A stretch of DNA of 64,000 nucleotides from an uncultured Gammaproteobacteria bacterium. Lineage in GTDB: Bacteria; Patescibacteriota; Microgenomatia; Levybacterales; GWA1-39-11. The position numbers were made by a program, and so were the translations under genes. The notes under the pieces were generated by a model. It did no database searches and had not been told where the DNA came from. It saw only the letters and a program-made list of their open reading frames with translations. The stretch spans positions 1,715-65,714 of the forward strand of contig CAYVKP010000001.1 in the NCBI GenBank assembly GCA_964452165.1, read 5' to 3'. Below, one piece after another: positions 213 through 27,811 of the stretch; the stretch's first letter is position 1, and each line of letters starts with the position of its first letter.

Positions 213-515
213 GCGTAGATTTTAAAAAATCAAAACTTATGTTCCGGCAAAGGACATAAGAAACTCGATCCCCGAGTTTTTGGCCTAGTTGTACTCAAAT
301 TAATATTTTACTCCGACTACTGCGTCGGAAATTATTTGAGAAAACAATATTTTATATATAAACCCCAATTGTCAATGTGCGGCTCTATAATATACTTTTG
401 TCTCGTCCCAAGTATATTGCCCTTGGCGACGAGGCAGAAATATACTAAATCTGCCTTAAAAATTAAGTGTGCTTGCACTGAGACCCACCTTTTCGAAGAA
501 AGGGTGAGTCGAAGT

Positions 516-588: not shown

Positions 589-845
589 AGATTATTGCAA
601 ATCACTCGAACCGCAGCCGAATAGCCTTGGTCCATTTAAATTTAATTTTTAAACCTGGTTGAGAAAACAAGATGTCCCCGCGTATGGGGAGAAGTTTCGT
701 TGACAATAGGGATCCCTAAGGATGTATTGGATTTAGTTTGAGTTTTTTATCATGAACTTGTGATCTGTTTCCTCGAAAGGTAAAAACTATTCTAGCGAGT
801 TCACGAAGTCTTGTCAAGCAGTATTTTGATGCTATAATTTAGCCA

Positions 846-11586: not shown

Positions 11587-11634
11587 TAAGATCTTAAAAC
11601 TCAGATATTGGATGTCAGATTTGAATTATGACAT

Positions 11635-12018
11635 TTGAGTTCTGAGTTATTAAATAGTATTATATCAGCTATGGCAACCGAATCTGAGGGAAAGCTTGAT
11701 GAAGTAGACGTTGAGGTCCTCAGGGAAATTCTTGATCTGGCAAAGACGGGAATTAAGGCAAAAAAAGAGAGCAAAGAGGAAAGACTTCATGTTGAGGTGG
11801 TAAGACAAATGCTGACTTTGGCAACTTCCGGTTTTGGACTCGTTGCGGCACTCGCCTGGAATAGCCTAATTCAAGAAATTGTTAGTAGCTACGTTAAAAG
11901 AAATCTTCCCGGGGGTAATGCAGGCGTCATATCACTTATTATCTATGCTGTTGTCGTCACAGCAATAGCGGTCTTTGTGACATTTCAGCTCTCAAAACTT
12001 CTCAAGAAGCTTTCGTAA
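11635..12018 (+). CDS. hypothetical small membrane protein
   Basis: 127-aa ORF with C-terminal TM helices. Stop overlaps the recF start. Confidence 0.4.
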   Translation: MSSELLNSIISAMATESEGKLDEVDVEVLREILDLAKTGIKAKKESKEERLHVEVVRQMLTLATSGFGLVAALAWNSLIQEIVSSYVKRNLPGGNAGVISLIIYAVVVTAIAVFVTFQLSKLLKKLS

Positions 12019-13067: not shown

Positions 13068-13874
13068 CTCTTTCATCATTTGAGGGATTTCGTTGGCAAG
13101 GTCTGAGGCGTTAAAGAAAATTCCAACACGCAGCTCCAAAGATTCTCCGGCTTTTTTATTTATATATGAGGCGGCACACGCCGATAAAAAGGCTTCGTTT
13201 TTGCAGTAAAAACTTGCAACAAGTCCGGCCAGGACGTCTCCTGTCCCACCTTTTGTCATTCCCGGATTTCCTCCCGGAATCTTGACAGATTGCTCAGGGG
13301 AAATAACAATATCCTCTTTACCTTTTAACAAAATTGTCATCCCGTATTTTCTCGCCATTTCAGTTACGTTTTCCGCAGTTGCCGGCACTTGAAATAGAGT
13401 TTCAAATTCCTTTTTATGAGGCGTTATTATAGTTTTTTTTGGAAGAACACTGGGCACTATTACCTGCAAAGACCCTCCATCTACAACCCACTTCTTATCC
13501 GGATATTTTTTAAAAAGTTTTTCTGTTAGTGCTTTTGTGTCATCGTCTCCCTCTTCTTTTCCTTCAGTCCTTGGAAGTCCTGGACCAATTAATATAACGT
13601 CTGCTTCATTAATGTAGTTATCTATTTTGCTACGAGGGACTACTATTCCATTTCTGAATTCGTCTTTTGCGACACTAACTAACTTATTATTCTCTTCAAC
13701 CGAGGAATAAAAAACCATATCCACAATCCTTGAAGCTATTGAAAGTGGCCAAAGAGACGCTGCGTGGAAAAGCTTACTGCCTGCAATAATCATAAGCTTG
13801 CCATTTTCGCCCTTATGAGACTCTGGTGCGGGTTTATATAAATTTTTAAGAATTTCTGCGTTGAATTCTTGCAT
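13059..13874 (-). CDS. nnrD: ADP-dependent NAD(P)H-hydrate dehydratase (YjeF C-terminal domain)
   Basis: GGTGDVLAGLVASF motif typical of carbohydrate-kinase-like YjeF_C domains. Confidence 0.75.
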   Translation of the reverse strand: MQEFNAEILKNLYKPAPESHKGENGKLMIIAGSKLFHAASLWPLSIASRIVDMVFYSSVEENNKLVSVAKDEFRNGIVVPRSKIDNYINEADVILIGPGLPRTEGKEEGDDDTKALTEKLFKKYPDKKWVVDGGSLQVIVPSVLPKKTIITPHKKEFETLFQVPATAENVTEMARKYGMTILLKGKEDIVISPEQSVKIPGGNPGMTKGGTGDVLAGLVASFYCKNEAFLSACAASYINKKAGESLELRVGIFFNASDLANEIPQMMKELL

Positions 13875-14018
13875 TTGAGGAGATTATACAAAGTTTAATA
13901 GCAAATTCCAATTTCCAAGCACCAAGTTCCAAACAATATCCAATGTTTTAAATTTTAGAAATTAAATACTTAGAATTTATTTGGATCTTGGGATTTGATA
14001 TTTGGAATTTTAGAGAGG

Positions 14019-14720
14019 TTAGCCTTCGATGGTTGTTCCTACAAATTCACGGCCTTCAAAATAGTTTTCAAGGTTTTCAAGATTACCTCCCTTAACAATT
14101 ACTACCTTAAGACCAAGTTCTTGTGCTTTCTTTGAGGCAATTGGATCATAAGGCATATTGAGTCCCGGAGTCCAGGTATCTCCAACTATTTTTCTGAATT
14201 CTTCCCAATTGATATTTTTTATTGGCTTTGCATCGGGATTGGTCTTGGGATCTGAATCATATGCCATTTCAATATTGCTCATATTAACAACTGTTTTGAC
14301 ATGGTAATCCTCGCACACCATTGCCGCGCAGAAATCGGTAGACCAGCCGGGCTTCCAACCTGAGGCAATGATAACAGGCTCGGTTACTTTTCTGATTATT
14401 TCATAGTGCTTGAGAATGTAGGGGTGGGCGATATCGCGGAAAATGGTACGGACAAGCTGCGCATTAAGACGTGTTGCGTGAATTCCAAGCCAATCAAGAT
14501 CCTCGGGGACAATATTTCCATCGACCACTTCTCTTGCTGCTTTCTGATAGTCTCTAGTTGTGGCGCCGCCACCTGCGACAATAAAAAATTGGAGATTTTT
14601 GTTTTCTGAAAGTTCCCTTCTTATAAAATCACTGAAGCGTTTGAGAAAGTCGACATCAATTCCTGTTTGCGGAACAATTAGCGAACCCCCAAGTGATATT
14701 ACTACTCTTTCTCGTTGCAT
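14019..14720 (-). CDS. pyrH: amino-acid-kinase family protein, archaeal-type UMP kinase-like
   Basis: N-terminal VISLGGSLI, an internal AGGGATTRDY, and a C-terminal VGTTIEG that resembles the archaeal PyrH C-terminus. 233 aa. Confidence 0.55.
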   Translation of the reverse strand: MQRERVVISLGGSLIVPQTGIDVDFLKRFSDFIRRELSENKNLQFFIVAGGGATTRDYQKAAREVVDGNIVPEDLDWLGIHATRLNAQLVRTIFRDIAHPYILKHYEIIRKVTEPVIIASGWKPGWSTDFCAAMVCEDYHVKTVVNMSNIEMAYDSDPKTNPDAKPIKNINWEEFRKIVGDTWTPGLNMPYDPIASKKAQELGLKVVIVKGGNLENLENYFEGREFVGTTIEG

Positions 14721-14860
14721 GCGTAAATCCTTATAAAAAAGGCAGACATGTTGCCCGCCATTTCTTATTCATTTAAGATACCAAAAAATACGCCTAAATG
14801 CAAGTTTGCGCTCTCTTTCCAATCTTGACAACAATTGGCATTTAACCTAATATATTAACC

Positions 14861-15643
14861 ATGCCGACGCGTACAACAAAAACCTCTTCTGCCTCCAAAG
14901 AAAATTTAATTGACAAAGCATCTACTATGCAGGCTCCTCAATTTACTTATTTCTTGCTTCTTATCGTTGTCTTTGTTCTTGGATATTTTGTTGCCCGCGT
15001 TCAATTTTTTGAAAAAGGTAATGGCGGAACTACTCCAACAACCGCACCTTCTGGGCAAGCTGCTGCGCCACAAGCACCATCTGTTCCTGATCCAAAAGAT
15101 GTTTTGAAGAAGATTACCAACGGCCATTTTCCAGTTAAGGGAAACTCCAACGCCAAAGTTAAGATTGTAGAATTTGCAGACTTCCGCTGCCCATTCTGTG
15201 AAAGATTCTTCACTGATACTGAGGGACAATTGATAAAAGATTACGTTGATACAGGAAAAGTAGCCTTTATTTTCAGGCAGTATGAATTCCTTGGTGCAGC
15301 ATCTGTCGTTGCCGGAAACGCAGCCGAATGTGCAAACGAGCAAGGAAAATTCTGGGAATACCACGACTGGCTTTACAAAAACCAGCCTGATGAAAGCGAT
15401 ACCTCAATGTTCAACACGGATTCCATGACTACCGCCGCAGTCTCTCTTGGAATGAACGGTGATCAATTTAGAAGCTGTCTTTCAGCAAATAAATACAATG
15501 CCAACCTCCAAAAAGATTTATCAGAAGGACAAAGCATTGGAGTCTCCGGAACACCAACTTTCTATGTTAACGGTCAACAATTAGTTGGAGCACAACCATA
15601 CACAGCCTTCAAAGCAATAATAGACACAGAGCTCAAGAAATAA
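14861..15643 (+). CDS. DsbA-family thiol:disulfide oxidoreductase with N-terminal membrane anchor
   Basis: CPFC active site within a thioredoxin fold and an N-terminal TM helix. Start may be the internal Met (MQAPQF...). Confidence 0.75.
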   Translation: MPTRTTKTSSASKENLIDKASTMQAPQFTYFLLLIVVFVLGYFVARVQFFEKGNGGTTPTTAPSGQAAAPQAPSVPDPKDVLKKITNGHFPVKGNSNAKVKIVEFADFRCPFCERFFTDTEGQLIKDYVDTGKVAFIFRQYEFLGAASVVAGNAAECANEQGKFWEYHDWLYKNQPDESDTSMFNTDSMTTAAVSLGMNGDQFRSCLSANKYNANLQKDLSEGQSIGVSGTPTFYVNGQQLVGAQPYTAFKAIIDTELKK

Positions 15644-15733
15644 TTCCTCCGGAAACAATTTACAAGGTTAACCAATTGACAAATTGACTCGTAAAAAACG
15701 TTATTTTGTTAATTTGTTGTTTTCGTTAATTTG

Positions 15734-16600
15734 TTAGTGCTGGCAACTCTCGCAGAAGAAGGTTCCGCGGCCTCCAAGATAGACTTTCTGAATCACTCCA
15801 CCATCAGCGCGTGAGCAGGGTTTCCCTTTTCTACCGTAAACTAAAAAATGTTTTTGATATTCTCCAAGCTGTCCCAAAACGTCTACAAAGTTAAGCTCTG
15901 AAGATCCACGATATTTCATTGCCTTTTCAAGTACTTTCAGGATTGAATCGAACAATGTTTTGATTTCGGTCGAACTCAAACTCTTAGCTCGGCGCCTCGG
16001 GTCAATGTGGGCATCAAAACACCCATCATTTGCGTAAATATTTCCTATTCCGCCAATCTTCTTCTGATCCATCAGTAGAACTTTAATTGGTAGGTTGGAC
16101 TTCTTAACTATTGCCGCAAACAAGGGTAGCGTTAACAAAGGCGTTCCGGATCCGGGAGACGGAATCGGCTCAGGGCCAAGCTCTTTAAAGAATGGTAGCG
16201 TCTTCAAGTCTGATGTTTTTAAAATCTTCATCCACGCAAAACCCCTGACTTCTTGAAAATAAAGCTTCGAACTTCCATTCAAGTGAAGTGTAACTCTCGT
16301 AAATTTATTGGGAACTTTTGCGGGCACTGGCTTCATAACTTCAAGATCTCGATTAAGACTATCACGAAAAATTAGTTGTCCGGTAAGCTTTATATGAAAG
16401 GCGATCGAATACGAATTTGATAGATCAATGACGATCCCTTTTGCATAGCGACGAATATCTTTTACTTTTGCGCCGGCTATTGAATCTGGATCTCCCGTCA
16501 GAAGCTTCTTGTCTATTACCTCAACGCTCTCAATTGTCTTTCCAACAACGTATTTTTGAAGACCTAATTTAAGTGTTTCAACTTCTGGAAGTTCCGGCAT
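15734..16600 (-). CDS. mutM: formamidopyrimidine-DNA glycosylase
   Basis: N-terminal MPELPEVE catalytic Pro2/Glu3, H2TH region, and C-terminal zinc finger CxxC...CESC. Confidence 0.8.
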   Translation of the reverse strand: MPELPEVETLKLGLQKYVVGKTIESVEVIDKKLLTGDPDSIAGAKVKDIRRYAKGIVIDLSNSYSIAFHIKLTGQLIFRDSLNRDLEVMKPVPAKVPNKFTRVTLHLNGSSKLYFQEVRGFAWMKILKTSDLKTLPFFKELGPEPIPSPGSGTPLLTLPLFAAIVKKSNLPIKVLLMDQKKIGGIGNIYANDGCFDAHIDPRRRAKSLSSTEIKTLFDSILKVLEKAMKYRGSSELNFVDVLGQLGEYQKHFLVYGRKGKPCSRADGGVIQKVYLGGRGTFFCESCQH

Positions 16601-18112: not shown

Positions 18113-19038
18113 ATAAGTTTCATCTGATTTTGCTTTTTAGTTTCGGCTTTTTGCACAAATACCTCATCTACTCTCTTTGGCAAGGTTTTGAATTCGAATT
18201 CTTCAAGTGCTTTTTTGAACCCATCGACGTCAATTTTTGAAGCAAGACAATCATCAAAGTCACATGAAAAAGGCGCATCGGTCAAAATAGTCGCAAGAGT
18301 GTGAGAAATTTGTCCTGACTCTGCCCCATCAATCAATTTTTGGGCCAAATTTTTATTTTTAACCGCAATCTCATCTAAGTGCTTGTAAATATTGTCAAAA
18401 TTTCCATACGCATTAATCAAAGTTGCCGCGGTTTTGGGGCCGACACCCGGAACTCCGGGATAATTATCCGATGCGTCACCTGTCAAAGACTTTAAGTCTA
18501 TTATTTGCGCCGGATCTACTCCATATTGAGCACGGACTGATTCTTCATCGTGAATCTTAACCTCTGAAATTCCTTTTATAGGCATTAATACTAAAGTCTT
18601 ATGATTCACAAGCTGTAACATATCGCGATCTCCCGTCACAACATAAACGATATTTCCCATATCTTTTGCCCTGTGCGCCAAAGTTCCAATCACATCATCT
18701 GCCTCAAATCCATCTACTCCAATTTGCATAATTTTTGCTTTATTTAAAATTTCAATGATTGCCCCGAACTGATCAGATAGGTCTGACTCCATCTTTGGAC
18801 GTTGTGCTTGATAGCCAACGTACATTTGCTGACGGAAAGTTGGCTTTGGGCGGTCAAAAGCAACCACAACATGAGCCGGTTTTAGCTGCTGAAATAGTTT
18901 TAAAAACATTCCGAAGAATCCTGAAATTGCGCCTGTCGGGACTCCGGCCGAAGTTGTAAACGGAGGCATTGAATGATACGCGCGGTGGACAAGTGCCGAA
19001 CCGTCAATAAGCATAAAAACTTCCTTTTTAGCTTCCAT
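18109..19038 (-). CDS. 5'-3' exonuclease / flap endonuclease (Pol I N-terminal domain-like)
   Basis: Conserved LIDGSALVHRAYH, FDRPKPTFR, GFEADDVIGTLA and GDRD motifs. The likely start is the internal Met (MEAKKEV...); the long ORF extends to 19140. Confidence 0.8.
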   Translation of the reverse strand: MEAKKEVFMLIDGSALVHRAYHSMPPFTTSAGVPTGAISGFFGMFLKLFQQLKPAHVVVAFDRPKPTFRQQMYVGYQAQRPKMESDLSDQFGAIIEILNKAKIMQIGVDGFEADDVIGTLAHRAKDMGNIVYVVTGDRDMLQLVNHKTLVLMPIKGISEVKIHDEESVRAQYGVDPAQIIDLKSLTGDASDNYPGVPGVGPKTAATLINAYGNFDNIYKHLDEIAVKNKNLAQKLIDGAESGQISHTLATILTDAPFSCDFDDCLASKIDVDGFKKALEEFEFKTLPKRVDEVFVQKAETKKQNQMKLI

Positions 19039-19410
19039 TGACCATATTATACAGGAGTTTTTGCCAATAAAAAGGGCGGTTGAGGAAGAAAAGTGAAAAT
19101 CATCATGAAGATGAAGCAAGTAGCATAAGCTACAGGTCACGATTCTATCAAACCGCCCTTTCGAACTCAGTTCGCATTGTAAGATTCATCCCGCCGGAAA
19201 GAAGGTGAGCAAGCATGTAGCTCAGTTTCTACCCAAAGGGATATACACCTGGAAGGTGAAGGATCTTACAAAGAGTGTCTCCAGAGGAGACAGGTACAAG
19301 GCAATCGCCTTGTGGTCCTGTCGTCCTCCTTCGACGCTTTGGGACGCACCTATGTGGTCCGGCTGGCAGCTAGGCTGTCAGACGTACGACATCAGGCCGT
19401 GTCCGTGAGA

Positions 19411-20835
19411 TCACCTGCGGACAACCGTCGCGACCGCGGCACCGGAGATGAGGAGAACCACCATGACACCAGCAACGATGGTCCAGATCGAACTCGAGGA
19501 GGAGCTCATGGCAAGACCTGCGTCACCGGTAGCCGGTGGCTTGATCGAAGGCGTCAGCGGCGCGTCGGCGGTGTCCACGGGGCGTGGAGCCGGTTCGGAG
19601 CCGTTGTAGTAGCCGTTGATCGCGGGCGTGTCAGCGTCACCAGCGTTCGTCGTGGTGCGACCATCGAACGTCGAGGACGTAGGAATGGGCACGTTAGATG
19701 CCGAAGGTGACTGTGCGAAGGCATCGTTCGTCGAGAAGACGTTGCTACTGACGAGCGGAGCCGGACCCTGACCCGTTGCGTAGTCCTTGACGGTGACCGT
19801 GTCTGTCGCCTGAGCGTTCACAGGATCGCTAGACGCCGTGTCGGCCGTCGTGTTGGACTGGTTGACCACGTAGACAGCGATGCAGAAGCCGGAGGGGTTC
19901 TCAGGCGCAGCGCATGCGGTCTTGGAGGCGACAGCGACGATCAGCAGACACGTAGTGCCAGGTGACGCCGTAGCGCAGCCGTTGTTGGTCAGGTTGTTCG
20001 TGTTCTGGCCGGCCAGGTTCGGCAGGCTCAGGTAGTTCGCCAGGCCAGGGTTCGAAGCGCCGATGACGACGGCGTCGAGCTGGCTGAAGTTAAGCAGACC
20101 CTGTTGTACCACGGGAAGTACGCCGAGAATTCGGCCGTCGATCAGGACCGTCAAGTGAGCGTTCGGGATCGACACAGCGTCGCGGATGTCGAGAACAGCG
20201 CCGTCAGAGCCAGCGGCCGGGACGAGTGCGTTCGTGACGTCGTTGACAGAGTTGCCCCTATTCGTGGCCTTCTCGTCACCGGTGGGGCTCGTCTGGTATG
20301 CAGCGACCGTGATGGATGCCGGCAGGCCAGTAAGCCTTAACGTGGCGGTAAGGACGATGTTCGGCACGCCGAGGTAGTTCGGCAGGCTCAGGTTGTTACC
20401 CAGCGGGTAGTTGGACTCCTGGACGTTGGTCTTGCCGAGAGTCGTTCCGGGGGCCATGTTGGTGCCCGAGTTGGCCAGGTTGGCCAGGTTCAGTTGGCTA
20501 ACGACTACGTAGTCGATGCCACTGCTGGAGAACGTAACGACCTTTTCGGCGAGGAGGATACCTCCAGGATCCGATCCGGTGTAGACGTCGTGCAACGAGT
20601 TGTTCGTCTGGACGGTCGACGCCGCAATACCTGGGGTCGAGTCAGACGTTGCCGCGGCAGTAGGAGCCGGCGAAGTCCAGAAGGCCGTCAAGCCAAACAG
20701 AACTGCTACCGTTACTGCCAGGGCGAAGAGCTTTGCCAGCGACACGCGCGGAGGCGGGTCCTGATAGTTGGTTGTGTGTCTGGTTTTCACCGGACACTCC
20801 TTTCCTTGCAAGGAAATGCCTGCATTCTGCAGCAT
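19411..20835 (-). CDS. cell-surface protein with signal peptide, internal repeats and a sortase-like C-terminal sorting signal
   Basis: N-terminal TM/signal (LFALAVTVAVLFGLTAFW). Internal repeats LSLPNYLGVPNIV and LSLPNLAGQNTNN in Ala/Thr/Ser/Asn-rich sequence. The C-terminus is KPPATGDAG, then a Ser stretch, a hydrophobic helix and RR, i.e. an LPXTG-type tripartite architecture with P in place of L. Confidence 0.55.
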   Translation of the reverse strand: MLQNAGISLQGKECPVKTRHTTNYQDPPPRVSLAKLFALAVTVAVLFGLTAFWTSPAPTAAATSDSTPGIAASTVQTNNSLHDVYTGSDPGGILLAEKVVTFSSSGIDYVVVSQLNLANLANSGTNMAPGTTLGKTNVQESNYPLGNNLSLPNYLGVPNIVLTATLRLTGLPASITVAAYQTSPTGDEKATNRGNSVNDVTNALVPAAGSDGAVLDIRDAVSIPNAHLTVLIDGRILGVLPVVQQGLLNFSQLDAVVIGASNPGLANYLSLPNLAGQNTNNLTNNGCATASPGTTCLLIVAVASKTACAAPENPSGFCIAVYVVNQSNTTADTASSDPVNAQATDTVTVKDYATGQGPAPLVSSNVFSTNDAFAQSPSASNVPIPTSSTFDGRTTTNAGDADTPAINGYYNGSEPAPRPVDTADAPLTPSIKPPATGDAGLAMSSSSSSIWTIVAGVMVVLLISGAAVATVVRR

Positions 20836-20839
20836 GGGT

Positions 20840-22900
20840 TGTGAAAAGAACGTTCCTCCCTCGCACCTTGCGAGATAGATCTTAGCTCTAAGCTATCCAC
20901 TTTGTGTACGGGTGTCTTTCCGGCGTCTGTCCTCGATGCCTCCCTCGGATGAGATCACTGCTGAGAACATCAAGGGCCAGGCCTTTCAGACTTTCCCGAA
21001 CTTTCGAGATCATCCCCTTTCAGTACTGCCTCTACGGTCAGTACTCTATTTCCAAGAGCTTGCCGAAGCGGGCGGCGGATCACAAGGCTACGCGGGGTGT
21101 ACCCGTTTCAGACTCGCTCTGAGAAAGCATTGGAGGGACGCCCCTTTTCCCTACGGACCAATCCGGCACTTTGCCGAACTTAAAATGTGTTGGGACGTCC
21201 CCTGATGATTAGCAGGTCTTCGATTCAAGCGAACACGTGCCCTGCACGTAATGCGTACAAATCCGCTCGTTTTCCGTTCAGCCGAATGCGTTGACGCACG
21301 GTTGATCTTTGACCTGCTCGTGGGAGCTCACCTCATCAGGGTGGCTTCTGGTAGTGATGCACCTTGCATCTCCTTTCTATTGATAGTAATCATCTCCGAC
21401 CCGAGCACCGAGAGCAGACTTTCGTCGCTGGCTCGACAACCGGAGAGAATCCCCTTAGTGGGAGACGTCCCATTTTTACTTACCCCACAAATGCCCGTCG
21501 TAAAGACAGGTTCCTCCTTTCTGAACTAGGAGCTGGACGCGGGACGTCTCCGGCGGCAATGGGTTTAGACAGTCAATACGAACCCTCCTTTCAGGGTTAT
21601 TCAGATAAGGCTCCGGGGAGTGAGCCTGGATCTGGCTGGTGGGAGGTAGCAGCAATAGACAGGGGGACAGGACCCTGTACTCGGCGCTTACTGCTACCAG
21701 ATGGTTTGGGAGGAACCCTACCATCCTTTTCCCAAGAACGTGCAAGTCCGAGGATTTCTCCTTGGACTGGGAATGGCTATGGAGACCATGGAGCGATGGG
21801 TCCAGAGGGCCTCCTGGTTGTTAGGGCGGAGCTCTTATCCGTGTCAGTGCGTTGTAGACATTTGCACTTTCCATGGCACCCTTCCTCTTTCGAGAATGGC
21901 TGGAGATCCGGCCTCGTACGAGTGGTCGCCTCTTATGAGGACTGAGCAGCTGGCTGCAACCAGACTTTTATATCTCAGCAACGACCATAGGCTGTGCTGC
22001 CATTAGGGCGGAGAGCGTGACCGGGTCACTATGCAAACGCGTCTGTTAAGAAGCGTCCACTTCCGGTTTACCTCCACCATACTCGACTCCTCCCTTCGAG
22101 TCTTCCTAGATAAGGTCTCAGCACTAGACCTGGATCTGGCTGGCGGGGTACGGCAGCTGAAACACGAATGCGATCGTGACACCACTGCCTAAAGATGGGT
22201 TCCAAGCCATCCTTTCCCCGATGAAAAGTGCAGTCTCCTCACGATGAGAAGACGTAGTTTTCCAGGAGGTGAAGGTCTCTTCACTTGCGCAGGCCACCAC
22301 GCGAAGAGAGCTTGCACCACTAGCCTGGTGAGTGTCGTCAACCGCCATACCACAGATCGTGGTAGTCCAGCACAAGGCGGAGACAAGACAACTCCTGGAC
22401 TCATCGAGATAGCAAGATGAGCCTAATTTGCGTCATTCAAGTGGAAAGCCATTCCACAAGAAAGTTATTTTGAATAACGAACAACAATAAAATAAAACTA
22501 AAATTTGATTTTTGTAAAATCCTTAAAAAAGACTCCTTCTGGAGTGTGGGGTTGTGAATTCAGACAATAAACAAACTCGTAATTATTGCCTCAGCTCACA
22601 ACCGGACACAAGCGCTATGCAAATAAGCGCTGTCAAAAGAAGTTATGCGAACTGGTTGTTAAAGTGCAAAACTTTTTTGCCAGAACGCATGCATTTGCAT
22701 AAAGGCATTATGTTATGTAATGCGAGTATATCTCTAAGGGAATTGCTTTTCAATTGGGCATTTACTGTAGCCTGAGGGGGATTGGGCGCGGGAATAGGAT
22801 ATAGATGTTTGTCTTCTTGAAGAAGACGATGCAGTTTGACTGCTACATCAGGTCCTAAACCCGCGTCCGCACCGGTTGCGAATTTATTTGTTGTAGATCA
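20840..22900. ncRNA. candidate large structured noncoding region with an internally duplicated module (strand undetermined, possibly minus)
   Basis: No ORF longer than 193 aa in ~2 kb, and the ORFs present are scattered over frames. Two homologous ~150-nt modules start at 21603 and 22108 (shared agataagg...cctggatctggctgg...gatgg...ccatcctttcc). The hairpin ggctc/gagcc in copy 1 becomes ggtct/agacc in copy 2, with three compensatory pair changes. Also contains an 11-bp inverted repeat (21460-21471 / 21531-21541) and multiple GGGACGTCCC palindromes. Confidence 0.35.
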
Positions 22901-22904
22901 CCTC

Positions 22905-24398
22905 CTATCTTCTGGTAGGAACTTGTGTCGCAAGACACTGTCCTGTCGCGATGACGTAATAGTCGCAGTTAGTCGGCGGCTGAGGATTTCCGCTTGGCTT
23001 CTGCGGCTGGACAGGCTGTTGCTGGACCGAAGGACCCGAGTTGGCCTTGCCAACAATCTGGTACGTTGCGGTGTTGCTTACGAGCGGTGTGTTGCCGTCG
23101 TATAGCGTAATCCTAAGCGTATCAGTGCCAAGTGGCGGAGCAACATTGCCCGTCGATTGACAGCCTGTGCCGGCGTTCACGTATTTGCTGACTGGCCGAG
23201 TCGCCGGACTTCCGTCTTGGGGAGAGTCGGTAACAACTATCGTACCAGCCTGCGACACATTCCAGCAGAACTTACCACTCGTGTAGACCGTTATGACTGA
23301 TGGATCAGCCCAAACGCTCACAGTAGCGGCAGGTGGTGGAGGTGCCGGACGAGATGTCGGCGCGGGTGGTGGTGCCGCGGGCGCTTGGGGCGCAGGCGGA
23401 ACCTTGGTCGCTGTTGGCGGTGGCGCTTGAACCTGCTGAACTTGCGGAGCAGGCGTTGGCGGCGTGAACGACCCAATGTTGGGTGCTGGACCCGACTTTT
23501 TTTGAATCTCAACGGAAGTGGTGTCTACCGCGACTTTCACGTCGTCGACATATGCTACTGCAGCGATGCTGTAGATGCCAGGAATGACATTGTCGACGAT
23601 TGGAATCGTGGTGCAGGACTTTTCTTCCGAAGAATACCCATTCCACAACGGCGTTGGCTCCTCTCCTTCTCGGGAGAAAGTTGAAACTACTCTGTACCAG
23701 ATCTTCTTGTTGAGCTGGAAACAAAGAGTTGCGCGGTCTCCTTCGACGTAGACGTTCTTGCCGTCATTGAACCACACTTTTAGAGTGTAGCTGAACGGAG
23801 CAGGCGTTGATGTTGCCGTTGACGGTGCCGCCTTCACCTCAGGGTGATCGTAGTCATCCCTAAGTTGGGAGTGTAACCACCCCATCACAGGTGAAAAACG
23901 ACCCTTGGTGTCAATTATGTTCGCTGGAGAAATCTGTAGGCTGGTTTGCCATTTTTCACCAACGTTCTGCTGAACGAAGGTGATTTTTCCGTTCGCCACT
24001 CCGGTGACCAGCGCCACATGTCCCCAAGGCCACTCCTCGTTTTTCCCGAAAACGAGAATGTCTCCCGGAACAGGAGCAGTTGAAGAACCGTTTTCGTACA
24101 CGTTGGCGAAGTTAATGTTGTCCTTGTTTCCAAACATCTCAAATGCATTGAGACCCCAGTTGTAAGGACCCCATTCTCTCTCGCCCCAGTAACGCTGAAC
24201 GAATTCGACGCACTGCCACTCAATACCGTACTTTGACGAACGTCCGGAGTAGTAAAACGGGTCATCTCCGTTGGAGAAGATGTCCGTTTTGTCGTAGGTT
24301 CCAAGACGCTGTCCGAATGACGACGACGCCATAACGATACCTACGAAAATGAGGGGGCTCAATCCCAGAAGGACTGCAGCCCTGACTAACCTGATCAT
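22905..24398 (-). CDS. secreted CHAP-domain peptidoglycan hydrolase with Ig-like middle region, Pro-rich linker and Cys-containing C-terminal domain
   Basis: Signal peptide (MIRLVRAAVLLGLSPLIFVGIVMA). CHAP catalytic Cys context WQCVEFVQRYW and His GHVALV. A ~45-residue P/A/Q-rich linker and a C-terminal domain of ~130 aa with 4 Cys. GC-rich codon usage. Confidence 0.7.
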   Translation of the reverse strand: MIRLVRAAVLLGLSPLIFVGIVMASSSFGQRLGTYDKTDIFSNGDDPFYYSGRSSKYGIEWQCVEFVQRYWGEREWGPYNWGLNAFEMFGNKDNINFANVYENGSSTAPVPGDILVFGKNEEWPWGHVALVTGVANGKITFVQQNVGEKWQTSLQISPANIIDTKGRFSPVMGWLHSQLRDDYDHPEVKAAPSTATSTPAPFSYTLKVWFNDGKNVYVEGDRATLCFQLNKKIWYRVVSTFSREGEEPTPLWNGYSSEEKSCTTIPIVDNVIPGIYSIAAVAYVDDVKVAVDTTSVEIQKKSGPAPNIGSFTPPTPAPQVQQVQAPPPTATKVPPAPQAPAAPPPAPTSRPAPPPPAATVSVWADPSVITVYTSGKFCWNVSQAGTIVVTDSPQDGSPATRPVSKYVNAGTGCQSTGNVAPPLGTDTLRITLYDGNTPLVSNTATYQIVGKANSGPSVQQQPVQPQKPSGNPQPPTNCDYYVIATGQCLATQVPTRR

Positions 24399-24403
24399 GA
24401 CCT

Positions 24404-24973
24404 TTACTCCTTCTCGAATTTGAAGGTACTCAGGATTTGAGGTCCGATTCCCTTCATGATATTGAACGTAGCGGATTGGCTCGGCGAAATGCCGTAAAGC
24501 CTACTACCTTCTTGAATGAACCACCTGACGTAGACAGGGTGGACGTCCGGCTGTTCAAGCCAACGCTTCTGGTTAGTAAGTTCGAGACAGCTTCCGCTTG
24601 TCAGCGTGAAGGAACAAGGGGAGAAAACCAGGCGCTTGCCCGCATCCCCGAGTTGGTCTCTAACTGAAGCCTCTACGTCGTTAGCTGATGCCACCTTTTC
24701 GTATCGAATGACAGCAAAGCCTGCGTACAACTCGCCGTCGTTCTCAAATTCCAGGTGCAAGATGTTGCCCGGATCTGTCTCGTACGTATCCTTGTGGAGA
24801 TCGAGATCCTTGATCTTTCCCGAAAGCCACCCGTCCTGGAAGTCTTCCCAGTCCGCAGTACTTGCGGTAGCCGGAATGACTGGCAGGGTAGATACTGGCT
24901 TCTTGGTCGAGCCTCCGCATGCTGCGAGCAGTGGAAGCACTAGGAGCAGTAATACCGAGACTGTCTGTCTCAC
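24404..24973 (-). CDS. lipoprotein (hypothetical)
   Basis: Lipobox LLAACGGS after a hydrophobic leader. 189 aa. Co-directional and 5 nt upstream of the CHAP gene, so a probable operon. Confidence 0.5.
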   Translation of the reverse strand: MRQTVSVLLLLVLPLLAACGGSTKKPVSTLPVIPATASTADWEDFQDGWLSGKIKDLDLHKDTYETDPGNILHLEFENDGELYAGFAVIRYEKVASANDVEASVRDQLGDAGKRLVFSPCSFTLTSGSCLELTNQKRWLEQPDVHPVYVRWFIQEGSRLYGISPSQSATFNIMKGIGPQILSTFKFEKE

Positions 24974-25391
24974 TTCGCACCTCTACCTTCCGTAGTCTAT
25001 TCGTGCTAGGTTGATATTCGACCCTGCTGGGTCTTGTGCTTTACCTTGTTTTATTTTCGTCGTCGTTCTCCTTTTTTAAATTCCGCTTCTTGGCGGAAAC
25101 TATCGTGCGTATTTTGTTTAGTCTTCTTTCGGCCGAATGCAAAATTCCGGACCCGAACTTTTTATCTGGTCAAGAACTTTGCATTCGATAAACACCTTGC
25201 TTTATAGTGCTTTCTGAAAGAAGTTTCGCAACCGGTTGTTAAAGAGCGAAAAACCTCGCGCTACAATGCATGCAAACGCACTAAGCCACGAGGAATTACT
25301 ATGTAATTGGAGTATAACGCCGTCTGAGACGGTTTTCAACTTAACACTATAAGATTTCTTTGCCCGTATTTTGAGCGAATGTGAAGGCTAT

Positions 25392-25595
25392 CTACGTTTT
25401 ACCCCACGTTACGCGGTTCCATACCCTTTCATGTAGGTAATAAAAGACTAACTTCAAAATTCCTTCGGCGCCTCCAACTCCGATTGAAAGAAGTAATTTA
25501 CGCGTGAAGACGAAAACAACCGCTGCTGTAGTAAGTGAAGCAATAATTCTCCAAGTAATAGTTTTGGCAACGCTGCGGTGGCTCTCCTCCTTCAT
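25392..25595 (-). CDS. small membrane protein, DUF2061-like
   Basis: 67 aa with two TM segments and a C-terminal YYLHERVWN-type motif, from recalled family similarity. Overlaps the stop of the upstream ATPase gene by 1 nt. Confidence 0.4.
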   Translation of the reverse strand: MKEESHRSVAKTITWRIIASLTTAAVVFVFTRKLLLSIGVGGAEGILKLVFYYLHERVWNRVTWGKT

Positions 25596-27811
25596 TAAAA
25601 TTGAGCTTTCCTACCGTAGCGCTCTTTGGAGTAACGAATAATCGCATCACGGTTTTCATTCTTAACATTTGGAAGCGGCAAGGTGGTTGCAGGGAAAGGC
25701 GCTGAGGTCATTCCGTCAATTGAAAGCTTTAAAACTATTTCAAATTTGCCAAGGGATACTAGGTCATTTTCGGTGTAAATCTCCGCATATTCCTTTGTAA
25801 GTCGCTCCGCATCTTGTGCACCGACAACAAAAGACATAAGAGTTCCGACATTTCCATAAATTGCATATTGAATCTCCTCCTCAAGCTGATCCGAATATTG
25901 ATTTGCTAAAGTCAAAGACAAGCGATATTTTCGTGCTTCGGATAGAATTTTAATGAAAGAGCTGGTTGCAAAATTTTGGAACTCATCAACGTATAGGAAA
26001 AAGTCACGTCTACTCTCCTCTTTCTGAAAAGATCTATTCATTGCAGCAAGCTGAATTTGGGTGATAACCATTGCTCCAAGAAGTGCCGCGTTATCCTCTC
26101 CTAATTTTCCCTGTGATAAATTAAGAATCAAGATTTTTCCTTCGTCCATTATCTCCTGAAGATTAATTGAAGAAGTGGGGTGGCCAATAATGTTACGGAT
26201 CATTTTTGATGAGACAAATTGTCCTACCTTGTTTTGGATTGGAGAAACAGCCTCAGCCTTTAGCTTATCCGGCATCCTGGCAAACTCAGCTTCCCAGAAA
26301 TTCTTGAGAACCGGGTCTGATAGTTTTGCAACAATTCTTGCACGAAACGCATCGTCTGATAATATTCTCAACGCGTCAATTAGAGTACCCTCCTCAACGT
26401 CGAGAAGGGTCAAAATAACATTTCGCAAGATATATTCAAGGCGCGGACCCCAAGATTCTCCATAAATCTTGTGGAAGATCGAGACAATTCCCGATGAGAC
26501 CAAGTCTTTATGCTGAGAATTACGAACCTCCAAAACGTTTAGCGAGAACGGGCGCTCGGCATCAAAAGGCTCCAGATAAACTACGTCATTGAGTCGTCTC
26601 TTTGGAATGTAATCCATAATAATCTCCGATAAATCTCCGTGAGGGTCAATGATTCCAATTCCGCGGTCTTTGCGAATATCGTCAATTGCCATGTTGGCAA
26701 TTAAAGTGGATTTTCCGGCTCCGGTTTTTCCAATAACGTAAACGTGTTTTCTCCTGTCGGGCGTTTTTATTCCAAAAATTGTTTCGGCATTTTTGAATTC
26801 GGTTTTTGCAAAAAAGTTGATATCCTTCTTTTCTTCTTCGGTAATGGCAGTTATAACCGGAAGATCTTCGGGTGGTTCTCCAAGAAGAGTCTTACCCCAA
26901 GCAATATTCTTAACCCCGGCAAGCAAGAATCCTGTGGGGTGCCAAATGGTTGCGAGTTCCTGAGCATTTAATATCTGTGTGCGCTTTTCAAGATAATAGG
27001 TTGAACGGTTTTTAATCCTTTCAATAAAGTTTTTCTTGCGGATAAGCGGACGCTTCAACTCAAATTCATTTCCGTCACCGTGAGAGAATATTCCAAACGT
27101 TCCCGCAAGATTTCGCAGATATAATCTTGGATCTGTATTTTCCGTACCTACAACTAGACGAATAAGCGCTTTTCCTCCTTGAAATGAGGCTTTTTGCATG
27201 ATTAAAAGTTGTTGTGGATCGCGGGCGTATCTGGCCGTTTCGGTACTATGTGCTTCAACCCCGGCCGTAGCAGGAGAAGTATGGGAGTCTGTTCCTGCAA
27301 GTATCATTTGCCCTGCTCGTTTTACGGCCCTTGCCTGCCAATCAAAAGACGCTGAGGTTACAAGAATCTCAACAGCCATTTTAACGTCTGCCGGCTGTTT
27401 TGCTAAGAATCCGATCAGCGCGCCTAAGGTATCTATGTCTTCAAAGTCGGCATAAGTCTTTGTTGGAAGATAAAATTCGTTATCCAGAACCAATTGACCT
27501 ACTGATATGTGCTTGCTGTCAAAAACTTTTGGCATAGGGTCCTCGGTTTTTTCAATTGATGAGGTTGGAAAAGAGGCTGCAATTTGGCTTGCGACAAAAG
27601 TCTCCTGATCTTCATCGGCCGTTACATAGAAGTAGACCGTTTGATTGATTAGAAAAATTTCGAATGAATAATAATGTGTTTTCATCCATGATCTTTTCCA
27701 GAAGGGAACATATGCATGCGATAAGCAGGAAGCAAAAATCTGTGCTGCTGAAGCAATTGGAGTCTCATCGTCCTTAGGATTTCTGACTAAAAGATGTACC
27801 AGTTTTCTCAT
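25595..27811 (-). CDS. FtsK/HerA-superfamily ATPase, TraG/VirD4 (TraD)-like or DUF87 type IV-secretion-related protein
   Basis: Walker A GKTGAGKST, Walker B FLYVDEFQNF. 738 aa with a long N-terminal region lacking TM helices and a C-terminal TraG-D_C-like region. Confidence 0.55.
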   Translation of the reverse strand: MRKLVHLLVRNPKDDETPIASAAQIFASCLSHAYVPFWKRSWMKTHYYSFEIFLINQTVYFYVTADEDQETFVASQIAASFPTSSIEKTEDPMPKVFDSKHISVGQLVLDNEFYLPTKTYADFEDIDTLGALIGFLAKQPADVKMAVEILVTSASFDWQARAVKRAGQMILAGTDSHTSPATAGVEAHSTETARYARDPQQLLIMQKASFQGGKALIRLVVGTENTDPRLYLRNLAGTFGIFSHGDGNEFELKRPLIRKKNFIERIKNRSTYYLEKRTQILNAQELATIWHPTGFLLAGVKNIAWGKTLLGEPPEDLPVITAITEEEKKDINFFAKTEFKNAETIFGIKTPDRRKHVYVIGKTGAGKSTLIANMAIDDIRKDRGIGIIDPHGDLSEIIMDYIPKRRLNDVVYLEPFDAERPFSLNVLEVRNSQHKDLVSSGIVSIFHKIYGESWGPRLEYILRNVILTLLDVEEGTLIDALRILSDDAFRARIVAKLSDPVLKNFWEAEFARMPDKLKAEAVSPIQNKVGQFVSSKMIRNIIGHPTSSINLQEIMDEGKILILNLSQGKLGEDNAALLGAMVITQIQLAAMNRSFQKEESRRDFFLYVDEFQNFATSSFIKILSEARKYRLSLTLANQYSDQLEEEIQYAIYGNVGTLMSFVVGAQDAERLTKEYAEIYTENDLVSLGKFEIVLKLSIDGMTSAPFPATTLPLPNVKNENRDAIIRYSKERYGRKAQF

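What the first reader, a model, noticed from the sequence alone, without database searches (positions are those of the whole stretch)
22627..22745. ~95-bp sequence block duplicated at 22627-22745 and 25205-25320, flanking the island's two leftward transcription units
The two blocks are ~70% identical (gaagtt..cggttgttaaag..atgcatgca..tatgtaat.gagtata). One lies upstream (minus-strand sense) of the lipoprotein/CHAP operon. The other lies upstream of the noncoding region and surface-protein gene. On the minus strand the first copy contains TTGCAC-N17-ATAACT, a sigma70-like promoter geometry. Both copies contain an ATGCATGCA palindrome. This suggests a shared promoter/operator module driving both units, or a footprint of duplication within the island.
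Basis: seen in the sequence. Interest (0 to 1): 0.5.

Follow-up and report, generated by a model that had tools for sequence, protein, structure and literature searches.

The report
Duplicated promoter plus boxA antitermination leader
The two similar blocks are the front halves of two copies of a roughly 230-base unit, a strong promoter followed by a folded leader RNA carrying the same "boxA" signal that ribosomal RNA operons use to stop RNA polymerase terminating early; one copy heads each gene unit of a foreign-looking island in a Levybacteria (candidate phyla radiation) genome.

Summary
The repeat is real: local alignment z = 13 against shuffles, about 62-66% identity. It is read on the minus strand.

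Each copy starts with the same promoter, TTGAAA-N17-TATACT. The rest of the block is transcribed.

The most conserved segment is GCTCTTTAACAA in copy B and GCACTTTAACAA in copy A. That is 12/12 and 11/12 identical to the E. coli rrnB boxA. The same motif class also occurs in this genome's own tRNA-23S spacer.

I found 11 further copies in 10 other distinct Levybacteria loci. Most lie just downstream of a conserved VirD4-like ATPase gene and ahead of varying, often G+C-rich cargo genes.

All 10 copies analysed in detail share one RNA architecture:
- a boxB-like hairpin;
- single-stranded boxA;
- a long-range helix (CUUCUUUC/GAAAGAAG) that closes over two hairpins.

Covariation supports this fold: 91% of cells paired against 68% in shuffles, and 24 of 29 pairs changed on both sides. 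Rfam has no matching family.

Best reading: an rRNA-leader-like, Nus-factor antitermination cassette that drives each island unit, one of them through 1.7 kb without an ORF. Nus-factor binding and antitermination are inferred, not shown.

Verdict: a new variant of a known kind, of moderate interest.

The parts
22521..22753 (-). Copy A, whole element: promoter, structured leader RNA and U-run
   Evidence: Folding z = -4.84.
22748..22753 (-). Copy A -35 box, TTGAAA
   Evidence: Promoter scan, 10 of 12 matches, 17-nt spacer. The same position is conserved in the other loci.
22725..22730 (-). Copy A -10 box, TATACT. Inferred transcription start is about 22718.
   Evidence: The start site is inferred from spacing only.
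22672..22704 (-). Copy A P1/P2 (boxB-like) hairpin region. The P2 hairpin AUGC-AAAUGCAU-GCGU lies at 22685-22700.
   Evidence: P1 is weak in this copy (4 bp) and is not in its minimum-energy fold.
22656..22667 (-). Copy A boxA, GCACUUUAACAA
   Evidence: 11 of 12 identical to the E. coli rrnB boxA (PMC2176067) and one mismatch to the consensus GYTCTTTAANA (PMC5725501). Located.
22634..22643 (-). Copy A P5 5' arm, ACUUCUUUUG
   Evidence: Pairs with 22532-22541 in the minimum-energy fold, also when 90 nt of extra 3' sequence is added. Covariation.
22611..22631 (-). Copy A P3 hairpin, AGCGCU-UAUUUGCAU-AGCGCU
22550..22603 (-). Copy A P4 long hairpin, GGUUGUGAG...CACAACC (the subtype shared with L011)
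22532..22541 (-). Copy A P5 3' arm, CAGAAGGAGU, followed by CUUUUUU at 22521-22531
   Evidence: The same bases were flagged as a terminator-like hairpin plus T-run.
25121..25339 (-). Copy B, whole element: promoter and structured leader RNA
   Evidence: Folding z = -5.52.
25334..25339 (-). Copy B -35 box, TTGAAA
25311..25316 (-). Copy B -10 box, TATACT. Inferred transcription start is about 25304.
   Evidence: The start site is inferred.
25254..25293 (-). Copy B P1 (CCUCGUG/CGCGAGG) enclosing the P2 hairpin with the UUUGCAU loop.
25236..25247 (-). Copy B boxA, GCUCUUUAACAA
   Evidence: 12 of 12 identical to the E. coli rrnB boxA and a perfect match to GYTCTTTAANA. It is the only exact match in the window.
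25216..25223 (-). Copy B P5 5' arm, CUUCUUUC
25190..25212 (-). Copy B P3 hairpin
25134..25187 (-). Copy B P4 long hairpin, CGAAUGCAA...UUGCAUUCG (the subtype shared with L004, L015 and L018)
25123..25130 (-). Copy B P5 3' arm, GAAAGAAG
22905..24973 (-). Transcription unit headed by copy B: predicted lipoprotein (24404-24973) and CHAP-domain protein (22905-24398). A terminator-like hairpin lies at 22827-22850.
19411..22520 (-). Transcription unit headed by copy A: a 1.7-kb ORF-free G+C-rich stretch (20836-22520), then a 474-aa surface protein with a sortase-like C-terminal signal (19411-20835)
   Evidence: The scan found no other strong promoter-like site between copy A and the gene.
370..380 (-). 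This genome's own rRNA-operon spacer boxA, GCACAUUGACA, between the tRNA (515-587) and the 23S rRNA (from about 218)
   Evidence: It is the only other match in the window to the family pattern GCWCWTTRANA. Context.

Best explanation
Each block is the 5' half of a unit of about 220-235 bases on the minus strand.

Parts of the unit:
(1) A near-consensus sigma-70 promoter, TTGAAA-17-TATACT.
(2) A nested hairpin, P1 enclosing P2, in the position of the rrn boxB.
(3) A single-stranded boxA, G-C-U/A-C-U-U-U-A-A-C-A-A.
(4) About 13 nt further on, a pyrimidine-rich segment (CUUCUUUC). After a short hairpin (P3) and a long variable hairpin (P4) it pairs with a purine-rich segment (GAAAGAAG). This forms a leader-trailer-like closing helix, P5.

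Proposed mechanism, by analogy with rrn operons, lambda nut sites and boxA-protected CRISPR arrays:
- The nascent boxA is bound by NusB-NusE(S10).
- With NusA and NusG, this converts RNA polymerase into a termination-resistant form.
- The polymerase can then transcribe untranslated or compositionally foreign DNA that Rho would otherwise terminate: 1.7 kb without an ORF before the surface-protein gene (copy A), and a roughly 330-nt leader plus the lipoprotein/CHAP genes (copy B).

The two copies are old paralogous subtypes of a Levybacteria-wide RNA family, not a recent duplication.

Shown here: the repeat, the shared and conserved promoter, the conserved and covarying RNA fold, identity of the core to boxA, and the same motif in this genome's rRNA spacer.
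Inferred: the transcription start sites, Nus-factor binding, antitermination, and any role of Rho.
For: Repeat: significant at z = 13.

Promoter: identical TTGAAA-17-TATACT at homologous positions in both copies. These are the two best promoter-like sites in 19000-25700. A TTGnnn-17-TATACT-type promoter sits 66-79 nt upstream of the core in eight of the nine copies measured (in L023 the promoter lies further upstream because of insertions); L016, L026 and L027 also have a promoter-like site upstream.

boxA identity: copy B GCTCTTTAACAA matches the E. coli rrnB boxA tgctctttaacaa 12/12 (PMC2176067) and the consensus GYTCTTTAANA (PMC5725501). Copy A has one mismatch. The A/G variation at the eighth base of the consensus mirrors the purine exchange between the E. 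coli and Aquifex boxA, which is judged likely to be tolerated (PMC3177189). The family pattern hits the window only three times; the third hit is in the tRNA-23S rRNA spacer, on the rRNA strand.

Other copies: found in L004, L011, L012, L015, L018, L019-22, L023, L027, L016 and L026, the last with two copies. All but L016's lie just downstream of the VirD4-like gene.

Structure: the minimum-energy fold of each of 10 RNAs, computed independently, gives P5 closing over P3 (plus P4 where present; L012 has none) in 10/10 and P1/P2 in 7/10. P5 persists in 9/10 when 90 nt of extra 3' sequence is added. Covariation: 91% of cells paired against 68% in shuffles (0/500), 24 of 29 pairs changed on both sides, and slid controls at 31-49%. 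Folding z = -4.8 and -5.5.

Architecture: the order promoter, boxB-like hairpin, boxA, then the 5' strand of a closing helix matches the described rrn leader layout (PMC10250234).

Context: boxA is known to protect untranslated RNA from Rho (PMC7665894), and Rho targets horizontally acquired DNA (PMC12360218). Long ORF-free stretches follow the element in the window, L023 and L019. The cargo is 48-60% G+C against 37-43% in the surrounding genomes.
Against: - There are no expression data, so the promoters and start sites are predictions.
- No nusB or rho gene could be checked. That is only a small sample of several genomes.
- Half of the copies, including copy A, have A instead of U at the third boxA position. 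The effect of this on NusB/E binding is unknown.
- The count of loose boxA-like matches in the window is not above chance on its own: 12 against 10.3 expected at up to 2 mismatches, and 3 against 1.9 for the family pattern. The argument rests on position and conservation.
- The boxC sequence of enterobacterial rrn leaders (UCUGUGUGGG) is absent.
- The helix arms used for the covariation count were chosen by me and aligned by register with artificial anchors, which inflates the percentage paired.
- Copy A and L011 end in a hairpin plus U-run that could simply terminate a roughly 190-nt RNA.
- boxA can also promote Rho termination in some contexts, as at suhB.
Confidence: 0.55

Rival explanations
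1. Stand-alone small RNA genes. Each copy encodes a structured RNA of about 190 nt that ends at the hairpin plus U-run after P5 and acts in trans. The conserved single-stranded core would be a seed for base pairing or a protein-binding site. The downstream genes would have their own unrecognised promoters.
For: Copy A ends in ACUCCAGAAGGAGU followed by CUUUUUU, which was flagged as terminator-like. L011 has a hairpin plus a U-rich tail after P5. The layout, with a conserved unpaired core flanked by hairpins, resembles many small RNAs. In some loci the distance to the next gene is very long: 1.7 kb in the window and 1.1 kb in L023.
Against: Most copies (B, L004, L012, L019, L023, L027) have no convincing U-run after P5. 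In every locus examined the next gene is on the same strand. The scan found no other strong promoter-like site ahead of the downstream genes in the window. The core is a literal boxA, which is a co-transcriptional signal rather than a typical seed. The two readings are not exclusive: there could be partial termination with regulated read-through.
Confidence: 0.2
2. The blocks are a DNA-level promoter/operator module whose palindromes ((AT)GCATGCA and CAACCGGTTG) bind a dimeric transcription factor that co-regulates both units.
For: There is a shared promoter. Copy B contains two perfect palindromes, TGCATGCA and CAACCGGTTG. The core is conserved in sequence rather than in structure.
Against: The palindromes are not conserved as palindromes. 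Copy A has CAACCAGTTC, L015 has GCGCTTTAGCTTGCGC in place of TGCATGCA, and L019 has GAAAATTCAG. The GCATGCA region changes sequence while keeping hairpin pairing. The motifs lie 30-90 nt downstream of the -10 box, inside the transcribed region.
Confidence: 0.07
3. A ligand- or protein-sensing attenuator (riboswitch-like leader). The conserved core would pair alternately with the 5' arm of P4, because ACAACC occurs both in the core and in the 3' arm of P4 in copy A and L011. This would switch a terminator on or off.
For: In copy A and L011 the sequence ACAACC(AG) occurs both in the core and in the 3' arm of the long hairpin that precedes a U-run. The fold is complex and conserved.
Against: The alternative pairing exists in only 2 of the 10 copies analysed. 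The other subtype (B, L004, L015, L018) has an unrelated P4 (CGAAUGCAA...) and no U-run. Rfam found no riboswitch match even at E <= 5. The cargo genes share no common metabolic theme that would suggest a ligand.
Confidence: 0.08
4. A relic or recombination scar: either direct repeats left by insertion of the lipoprotein/CHAP module (att-like), or inert remnants of a former rRNA-operon leader with no present function.
For: The two copies are direct repeats flanking a 2.5-kb module. The slot is a hot spot whose content differs between genomes and, in L020/L021, holds a large insertion. The layout resembles an rrn leader.
Against: The copies are only about 65% identical and are no closer to each other than to copies in other species. 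Single copies occur in most genomes. Compensatory changes in four helices and an intact consensus promoter in all copies examined argue for purifying selection on a working RNA.
Confidence: 0.05

Closest known systems
rRNA-operon antitermination leader (boxB-boxA-boxC plus leader-trailer helix; rrnTAC with NusA, NusB, NusE, NusG, SuhB and S4)
   Same: The order of parts is the same: strong promoter, hairpin, single-stranded boxA, then after a short spacer the 5' strand of a long-range closing helix (PMC10250234). The boxA sequence is identical to E. coli rrnB in copy B. The same motif class sits in this genome's own tRNA-23S spacer.
   Different: The closing helix encloses only 30-160 nt of hairpins, not an rRNA. 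The boxC sequence UCUGUGUGGG is absent, and the 5' arm is CUUCUUUC instead. What follows is protein-coding cargo and ORF-free DNA, not rRNA. There is no overall sequence similarity to this genome's 23S leader.
Phage lambda nutL/nutR sites (boxA plus boxB, N protein and Nus factors)
   Same: Two diverged copies of a boxA-plus-hairpin signal, each placed just downstream of a promoter that drives one of two transcription units. Both are expected to give processive antitermination through NusB/NusE binding to boxA.
   Different: The order is hairpin then boxA, as in rrn, whereas lambda has boxA then boxB. No N-like protein is evident. The hairpin loops carry UUUGCAU, not the GAAAA-type boxB loop (the lambda loop is from my own knowledge). 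The element is chromosomal and conserved across a bacterial class, not a phage.
boxA elements upstream of non-rRNA targets: CRISPR arrays (Salmonella and many phyla), suhB, rpsJ, and a ParE-like toxin
   Same: A boxA lies in the 5' leader of a non-rRNA transcription unit. For CRISPR arrays it protects a long untranslated RNA from Rho (PMC7665894; PMC5725501), which parallels the 1.7-kb ORF-free stretch after copy A.
   Different: Those elements are described essentially as a bare boxA. Here boxA is embedded in a conserved, covarying fold of about 190 nt. The targets are variable, compositionally foreign genes for secreted or surface proteins in a candidate-phyla-radiation lineage. I found no paper linking boxA with that group.
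RfaH/ops (JUMPstart) and LoaP leaders; HK022 put and Bacillus EAR RNAs (other processive antitermination signals)
   Same: They work alike in principle: a conserved signal in the 5' leader of long or horizontally acquired operons makes RNA polymerase resistant to termination (for RfaH). The put elements also come as two diverged copies behind two promoters (from my own knowledge).
   Different: There is no sequence or structural similarity. ops acts as non-template DNA with a NusG paralog, and put and EAR act without boxA. Rfam, which I expect to include such families, gave no match.

Membership tests
boxA (NusB-NusE binding antiterminator RNA) | Sequence matches the boxA consensus (E. coli rrn UGCUCUUUAACAA; GYTCTTTAANA) | tested here: met
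   Copy B is 12/12 to the rrnB boxA and 11/11 to the consensus. Copy A has one mismatch, U to A at the third position. Across the 10 copies analysed, G1, C2, C4, U6, U7, A9 and A11 are invariant.
boxA (NusB-NusE binding antiterminator RNA) | Lies in the transcribed leader shortly after a promoter, and is single-stranded | tested here: met
   boxA starts about 50-65 nt after the predicted start site. It lies between helices in most of the 10 minimum-energy folds and is partly paired in some of them, including copy A. Transcription itself is predicted, not measured.
boxA (NusB-NusE binding antiterminator RNA) | The same motif is used in the organism's own rRNA operon | tested here: met
   GCACAUUGACA at 370-380(-), in the tRNA-23S spacer, is the only other match in the window to the family pattern. 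The 16S leader is not in the window and could not be checked.
boxA (NusB-NusE binding antiterminator RNA) | Bound by NusB-NusE, and the genome encodes nusB | not testable with these tools
   No nusB was found in the 331 kb held, but that is a small fraction of the genomes concerned. Binding needs an experiment.
boxA (NusB-NusE binding antiterminator RNA) | Confers resistance to Rho-dependent termination on downstream transcription | not testable with these tools
   Only circumstantial: long ORF-free or foreign DNA lies downstream.
rrn-type antitermination leader (boxB-boxA-boxC plus leader-trailer helix) | Order 5' boxB hairpin, boxA, then the 5' strand of a long-range helix within about 20 nt | tested here: met
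   P1/P2 hairpin, boxA, about 13 nt, then the P5 5' arm. P5 is supported by compensatory changes. The reference layout is in PMC10250234.
rrn-type antitermination leader (boxB-boxA-boxC plus leader-trailer helix) | Conserved boxC sequence (UCUGUGUGGG in Enterobacteriaceae) | tested here: not met
   No GU-rich boxC-like motif follows boxA. The equivalent position holds CUUCUUUC. boxC may differ between lineages.
rrn-type antitermination leader (boxB-boxA-boxC plus leader-trailer helix) | The helix encloses, and the unit expresses, an rRNA | tested here: not met
   There is no rRNA or other Rfam family within or after the element. Protein-coding genes follow it.
Sigma-70 promoter | -35 and -10 hexamers close to consensus with 17 +/- 1 nt spacing, conserved in relatives | tested here: met
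   TTGAAA-17-TATACT in both copies, 10 of 12 matches. A TTGnnn-17-TATACT-type promoter is present in the other copies examined. Activity was not measured.
Any described RNA family (Rfam 15) | Covariance-model match | tested here: not met
   No match at gathering thresholds in the window or in 9 related loci, and none at E <= 5 in 19000-25700.
att-type direct repeats of an integrated element | Near-identical short repeats at the exact borders of the inserted DNA, with an integrase nearby | tested here: not met
   The copies are 62-66% identical, include a promoter, and are as divergent from each other as from copies in other species. There is no integrase in the island.

The most novel reading that the evidence does not exclude
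Levybacteria have turned an rRNA-leader-type antitermination module (promoter, boxB-like hairpin, boxA, leader-trailer-like helix) into a reusable expression cassette. The cassette sits at a hypervariable slot next to the VirD4-like ATPase gene and heads each newly acquired transcription unit. These units are G+C-rich and often encode surface or secreted proteins. In this way foreign or untranslated DNA would become transcribable in a host whose Rho would otherwise silence it. This would be a Nus-factor counterpart of RfaH/ops for horizontally acquired genes. The roughly 100-nt domain closed by P5 may in addition be cut out, as pre-rRNA is, to give a stable small RNA.
Probability: 0.3. Interest if true: 0.65.

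Novelty: new variant of a known kind. Interest (0 to 1): 0.55.

Why it matters
boxA/Nus antitermination is textbook for rRNA operons and lambda. It has only recently been extended to a few other targets such as suhB and CRISPR arrays.

Here a literal boxA sits inside a conserved, covarying RNA of about 190 nt that is absent from Rfam. It occurs in a candidate-phyla-radiation lineage for which almost no gene regulation is known. It is placed in front of variable, compositionally foreign genes and of kilobase-long ORF-free stretches.

If the mechanism holds, three things follow:
1. It is the first cis-regulatory RNA assigned to this part of the tree.
2. It shows how ultra-small symbionts express acquired surface and cell-wall-active genes.
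3. It is a compact natural test case for the model in which boxA-anchored polymerase helps a leader strand find its trailer strand.

It also gives genome annotators a simple marker for transcription-unit starts in Levybacteria: a TATACT promoter, then GCWCWTTRANA about 70 nt downstream.

Tried and rejected
- Chance similarity: rejected, z = 13.
- Rfam match for the element or the island: none, even at E <= 5.
- Diversity-generating retroelement template/variable repeats: considered because such elements are, from my own knowledge, common in this group. Rejected because both copies are intergenic, the mismatches are not adenine-specific and there is no reverse transcriptase.
- att-type repeats or a recent duplication: rejected.
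- Recent copy of this genome's own 23S leader: no significant alignment. Only short positional echoes remain: CGAAACTTCT after a boxA-like CCCTATTGTCAA, and CAACCAG. I treat these as hints only.
- My first guess that TTGTTTTCTCAA, present twice in the rRNA leader and spacer, is the native boxA: superseded by the GCACATTGACA match, but not excluded.
- 5S-rRNA-like three-way junction for P5[P3,P4]: rejected because the domain length varies from about 50 to about 160 nt and there is no Rfam hit.
- Homology of the 1.7-kb ORF-free stretch to the ORF-free stretches in L019 and L023, or to any Pfam family: none.
- MAFFT alignment of the real or P4-excised sequences: this put the helix arms out of register. 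I therefore imported a register-anchored manual alignment using artificial anchor sequences. That weakens the independence of the test.
- Collection scans with the core pattern: most hits were chance matches inside coding DNA (L005-L010, L024, L025). Only L011 was a true copy.
- Search for nusB and S10 in the held DNA: nothing found, and uninformative.
- Literature on boxA or NusB in Patescibacteria: nothing relevant.
Full report
**1. The observation**

The two blocks are real. A local alignment of 22600-22780 with 25180-25360 scores 48. One thousand dinucleotide-preserving shuffles give 17.0 +/- 2.4 (maximum 28), so z = 13. Scanning copy A against the whole window on both strands finds nothing comparable apart from self-overlaps.

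The exact 9-mer ATGCATGCA is present only in copy B. Copy A has GCATGCAT.

**2. Setting**

- The window is about 40% G+C, but 19000-25000 is 52-59%.
- On the minus strand the gene order is: a VirD4/TrwB-like ATPase (25595-27811), a DUF2061 protein (25392-25595), copy B, a predicted lipoprotein (24404-24973), a CHAP-domain protein (22905-24398), copy A, 1.7 kb with no ORF, a 474-aa protein with a sortase-like C-terminal signal (19411-20835), and a 5'-3' exonuclease.
- Sources name the nearest homologues of the ATPase as Candidatus Levybacteria or Patescibacteria.
- The lipoprotein has only one other homologue cluster among 5.8 billion proteins.

**3. Strand and promoter**

The promoter scan of 19000-25700 returned six sigma-70-like sites. 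The two best (10 of 12 matches) are the same sequence, TTGAAA-17-TATACT, at homologous positions in the two copies on the minus strand: 22753..22725 and 25339..25311.

The remaining roughly 90 bases of the repeat are transcribed.

**4. Relatives**

- The only lipoprotein homologue (L004) has the same block between the end of the ATPase gene and the lipoprotein gene.
- A pattern built from the three cores (TTTT-GCNCTTTRACAACCRGT-T) found one true further copy in the genome collection. This is L011, a Patescibacteria MAG that is syntenic with the window but has only a G+C-rich surface-protein gene as cargo. The remaining hits were chance matches in coding DNA.
- Contexts of ATPase homologues at 74-87% identity gave more copies: L012 (lipoprotein-like gene plus CHAP gene), L015 and L018 (fatty-acid desaturase), L019-22, L023, L027, L026 (two copies) and L016. 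L016's copy lies further downstream, after toxin-antitoxin genes.
- L014 has none.
- The element is therefore a family found across Levybacteria, usually in the slot between the ATPase gene and the 5'-3' exonuclease gene, whose cargo differs from genome to genome.
- A TTGnnn-17-TATACT-type promoter lies 66-79 nt upstream of the core in all but the insertion-bearing L023.

**5. The core is boxA**

- The invariant segment reads GCUCUUUAACAA in copy B, L011 and L012, and GCACUUUAACAA in copy A.
- The E. coli rrnB boxA is ...tgctctttaacaatttatca (PMC2176067). The gamma-proteobacterial consensus is GYTCTTTAANA (PMC5725501).
- The A/G variation at the eighth base of the consensus in this family matches a purine exchange between the E. 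coli and Aquifex rrn boxA. Structural work judged that exchange likely to be tolerated (PMC3177189).
- The family pattern GCWCWTTRANA matches the window three times: the two copies, and 370-380 on the minus strand.
- That third site lies in the spacer between a tRNA and the 5' end of the 23S rRNA, on the rRNA strand. This is where an rrn spacer boxA is expected (PMC10250234). About 1.9 matches are expected by chance in the whole window, so it is the location that is informative, not the count.

**6. RNA structure**

RNAfold was run separately on ten copies, from the inferred start site to the purine-rich segment.

- It gives the same 3' domain in 10 of 10: a helix P5 (CUUCUUUC with GAAAGAAG) closing over a short hairpin P3 and a long variable hairpin P4. 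L012 lacks P4.
- It gives a 5' nested hairpin, P1 enclosing P2, in 7 of 10. boxA lies between these helices and is unpaired in most of the folds.
- With 90 nt of extra downstream sequence, P5 is still in the minimum-energy fold in 9 of 10.
- P5 shows clear compensatory changes: CGUCUUUC/GAAAGACG in L004, AAUUAUUUUGAA/UUCGAAAUAGUU in L011, and ACUUUUUCUGAA/UUCGGGAAAAGU in L023.

The formal covariation count needed a workaround. MAFFT could not keep the helix arms in register. I therefore imported a manual, register-anchored alignment of the arms, using artificial anchor sequences.

On that alignment:
- 91% of cells pair, against 68% in shuffles (0 of 500 shuffles reach the observed value);
- 24 of 29 pairs show changes on both sides (13.4 expected);
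- sliding the partners by 1-3 columns drops pairing to 31-49%.

Because I chose the arms, the percentage paired is biased upwards. The shuffle result and the independent minimum-energy folds are the more trustworthy parts.

Copies A and B fold far better than their shuffles: z = -4.84 and -5.52.

The P2 and P3 loops share a UUUGCAU-type motif.

Rfam has no match.

**7. Relation between the two copies**

- In the promoter-to-P5a half, A and B are 65% identical. That is no more than B against L004 (66%) or A against L011 (62%).
- In the 3' half, A is closest to L011 (59%) and B to L004 and L015 (62%), while A against B is 51%.
- They are therefore two old subtypes, not a fresh duplication or an insertion scar. 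The subtypes differ in P4: GGUUGUGAG...CACAACC against CGAAUGCAA...UUGCAUUCG.
- L026 also carries two copies.

**8. Mechanism proposed**

The order of parts is: promoter, hairpin, boxA, short spacer, then the 5' strand of a closing helix. This is the described layout of rrn leaders. There, boxA bound to NusB/NusE is thought to hold the leader strand near the RNA exit channel until the trailer emerges (PMC10250234).

boxA recruits NusB/E and builds a Rho-resistant elongation complex. It protects untranslated CRISPR arrays in the same way (PMC7665894). Rho preferentially silences horizontally acquired DNA (PMC12360218).

Here the element precedes:
- 1.7 kb with stop codons in all frames, no Pfam or Rfam match, and only moderate predicted structure;
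- similar ORF-free stretches in L023 (1.1 kb) and L019;
- compositionally atypical genes.

I therefore read each copy as a promoter plus a Nus-type antitermination leader. The promoter, the fold and the boxA identity are shown. The start sites, Nus-factor binding and antitermination are inferred.

**9. Weak points**

- There are no expression data.
- nusB and rho could not be checked.
- Half of the copies have A at the third boxA position.
- The enterobacterial boxC sequence is absent.
- Copy A and L011 end with a hairpin plus U-run that might simply terminate a roughly 190-nt RNA.
- boxA can also enhance Rho termination in some contexts.

The small-RNA reading is the main rival and is not exclusive of the leader reading.

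**10. Novelty**

boxA leaders outside rRNA operons are known (suhB, CRISPR arrays, a toxin gene). I found no report linking boxA with the candidate phyla radiation, and there is no Rfam family for this fold.

I class the finding as a new variant of a known kind, of moderate interest.

Noticed in passing
window 19150-25000 (compare L011 4800-6400, L012 11537-13580, L015 3729-4811): The slot between the VirD4-like ATPase gene and the 5'-3' exonuclease gene is a variable-cargo hot spot in Levybacteria. The cargo is lipoprotein plus CHAP, a surface protein, a fatty-acid desaturase, a 23S_rRNA_IVP protein or small unknown genes. It is usually much richer in G+C than the genome (48-60% against 37-43%). 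The compositional jump persists even between relatives whose lipoproteins are only 55% identical.
   Followed up: partly
window 20836-22520: A 1.7-kb stretch of 54% G+C with stop codons in all six frames. It has no Pfam hit for any open segment and no Rfam hit. Predicted folding is moderate (z from -0.7 to -4.6 in 200-nt windows). It may be a long untranslated leader, a decayed gene or an undescribed large RNA. ORF-free G+C-rich stretches also follow the element in L023 (about 9790-10846) and L019 (about 9590-9915), but without sequence similarity to this one.
   Followed up: partly
window 335-346 and 659-670 (minus strand): The 12-mer TTGTTTTCTCAA occurs twice on the rRNA strand: once in the leader upstream of the tRNA and once in the tRNA-23S spacer, just after the boxA at 370-380. 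It may be a second conserved rRNA-leader signal, for example a processing or boxC-like element. The leader also carries CCCTATTGTCAA followed by CGAAACTTCT; the same 10-mer follows boxA in copy B.
   Followed up: partly
window 1-820 (minus strand): The 23S rRNA (5' end at about 218) is preceded by a tRNA (515-587) and a TTGACA-17-TAGAAT promoter-like site at about 787-815. There is no 16S rRNA gene anywhere in the 64 kb, so the rRNA genes appear to be unlinked in this genome.
   Followed up: no
L020 and L021, about 10250-16220: In two strains whose ATPase protein is identical to that of L019 and L022, the same slot holds a large insertion. It includes small unknown genes, an HTH_17/excisionase-like gene and an N6_N4 DNA methylase, so it is probably an integrated mobile element or prophage next to the boxA element.
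   Followed up: no
L026 7330-7600 and about 9900-10150; L016 about 8355-8620: L026 carries two copies of the element (boxA at 7532 and 10036), each with an extra upstream module (GGGTTTACCCTGAGCGAA...GAGTCGAAGG). L016 has a copy that is not adjacent to the ATPase gene: it lies after PIN/antitoxin genes and a 1.3-kb ORF-free gap.
   Followed up: partly
window 19411-19560 (C-terminus of the 474-aa protein): The surface protein ends in KPPATGDAG, then a hydrophobic stretch, then RR. This looks like a sortase sorting signal with a non-canonical PPATG motif. The only similarity to the 546-aa cargo protein of L023 is in this tail (45% over 44 residues).
   Followed up: no
window 25320-25332: A perfect 6-bp inverted repeat, CCGTCT-N-AGACGG, sits inside the 17-nt spacer of copy B's promoter. 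It could be the terminator of the upstream DUF2061/ATPase unit, or a site that modulates the promoter. Copy A has no equivalent.
   Followed up: no
window 56119-56168 and 63232-63281: A 50-nt inverted repeat, 78% complementary, with arms 7 kb apart. It is probably a conserved motif shared by two paralogous genes on opposite strands.
   Followed up: no
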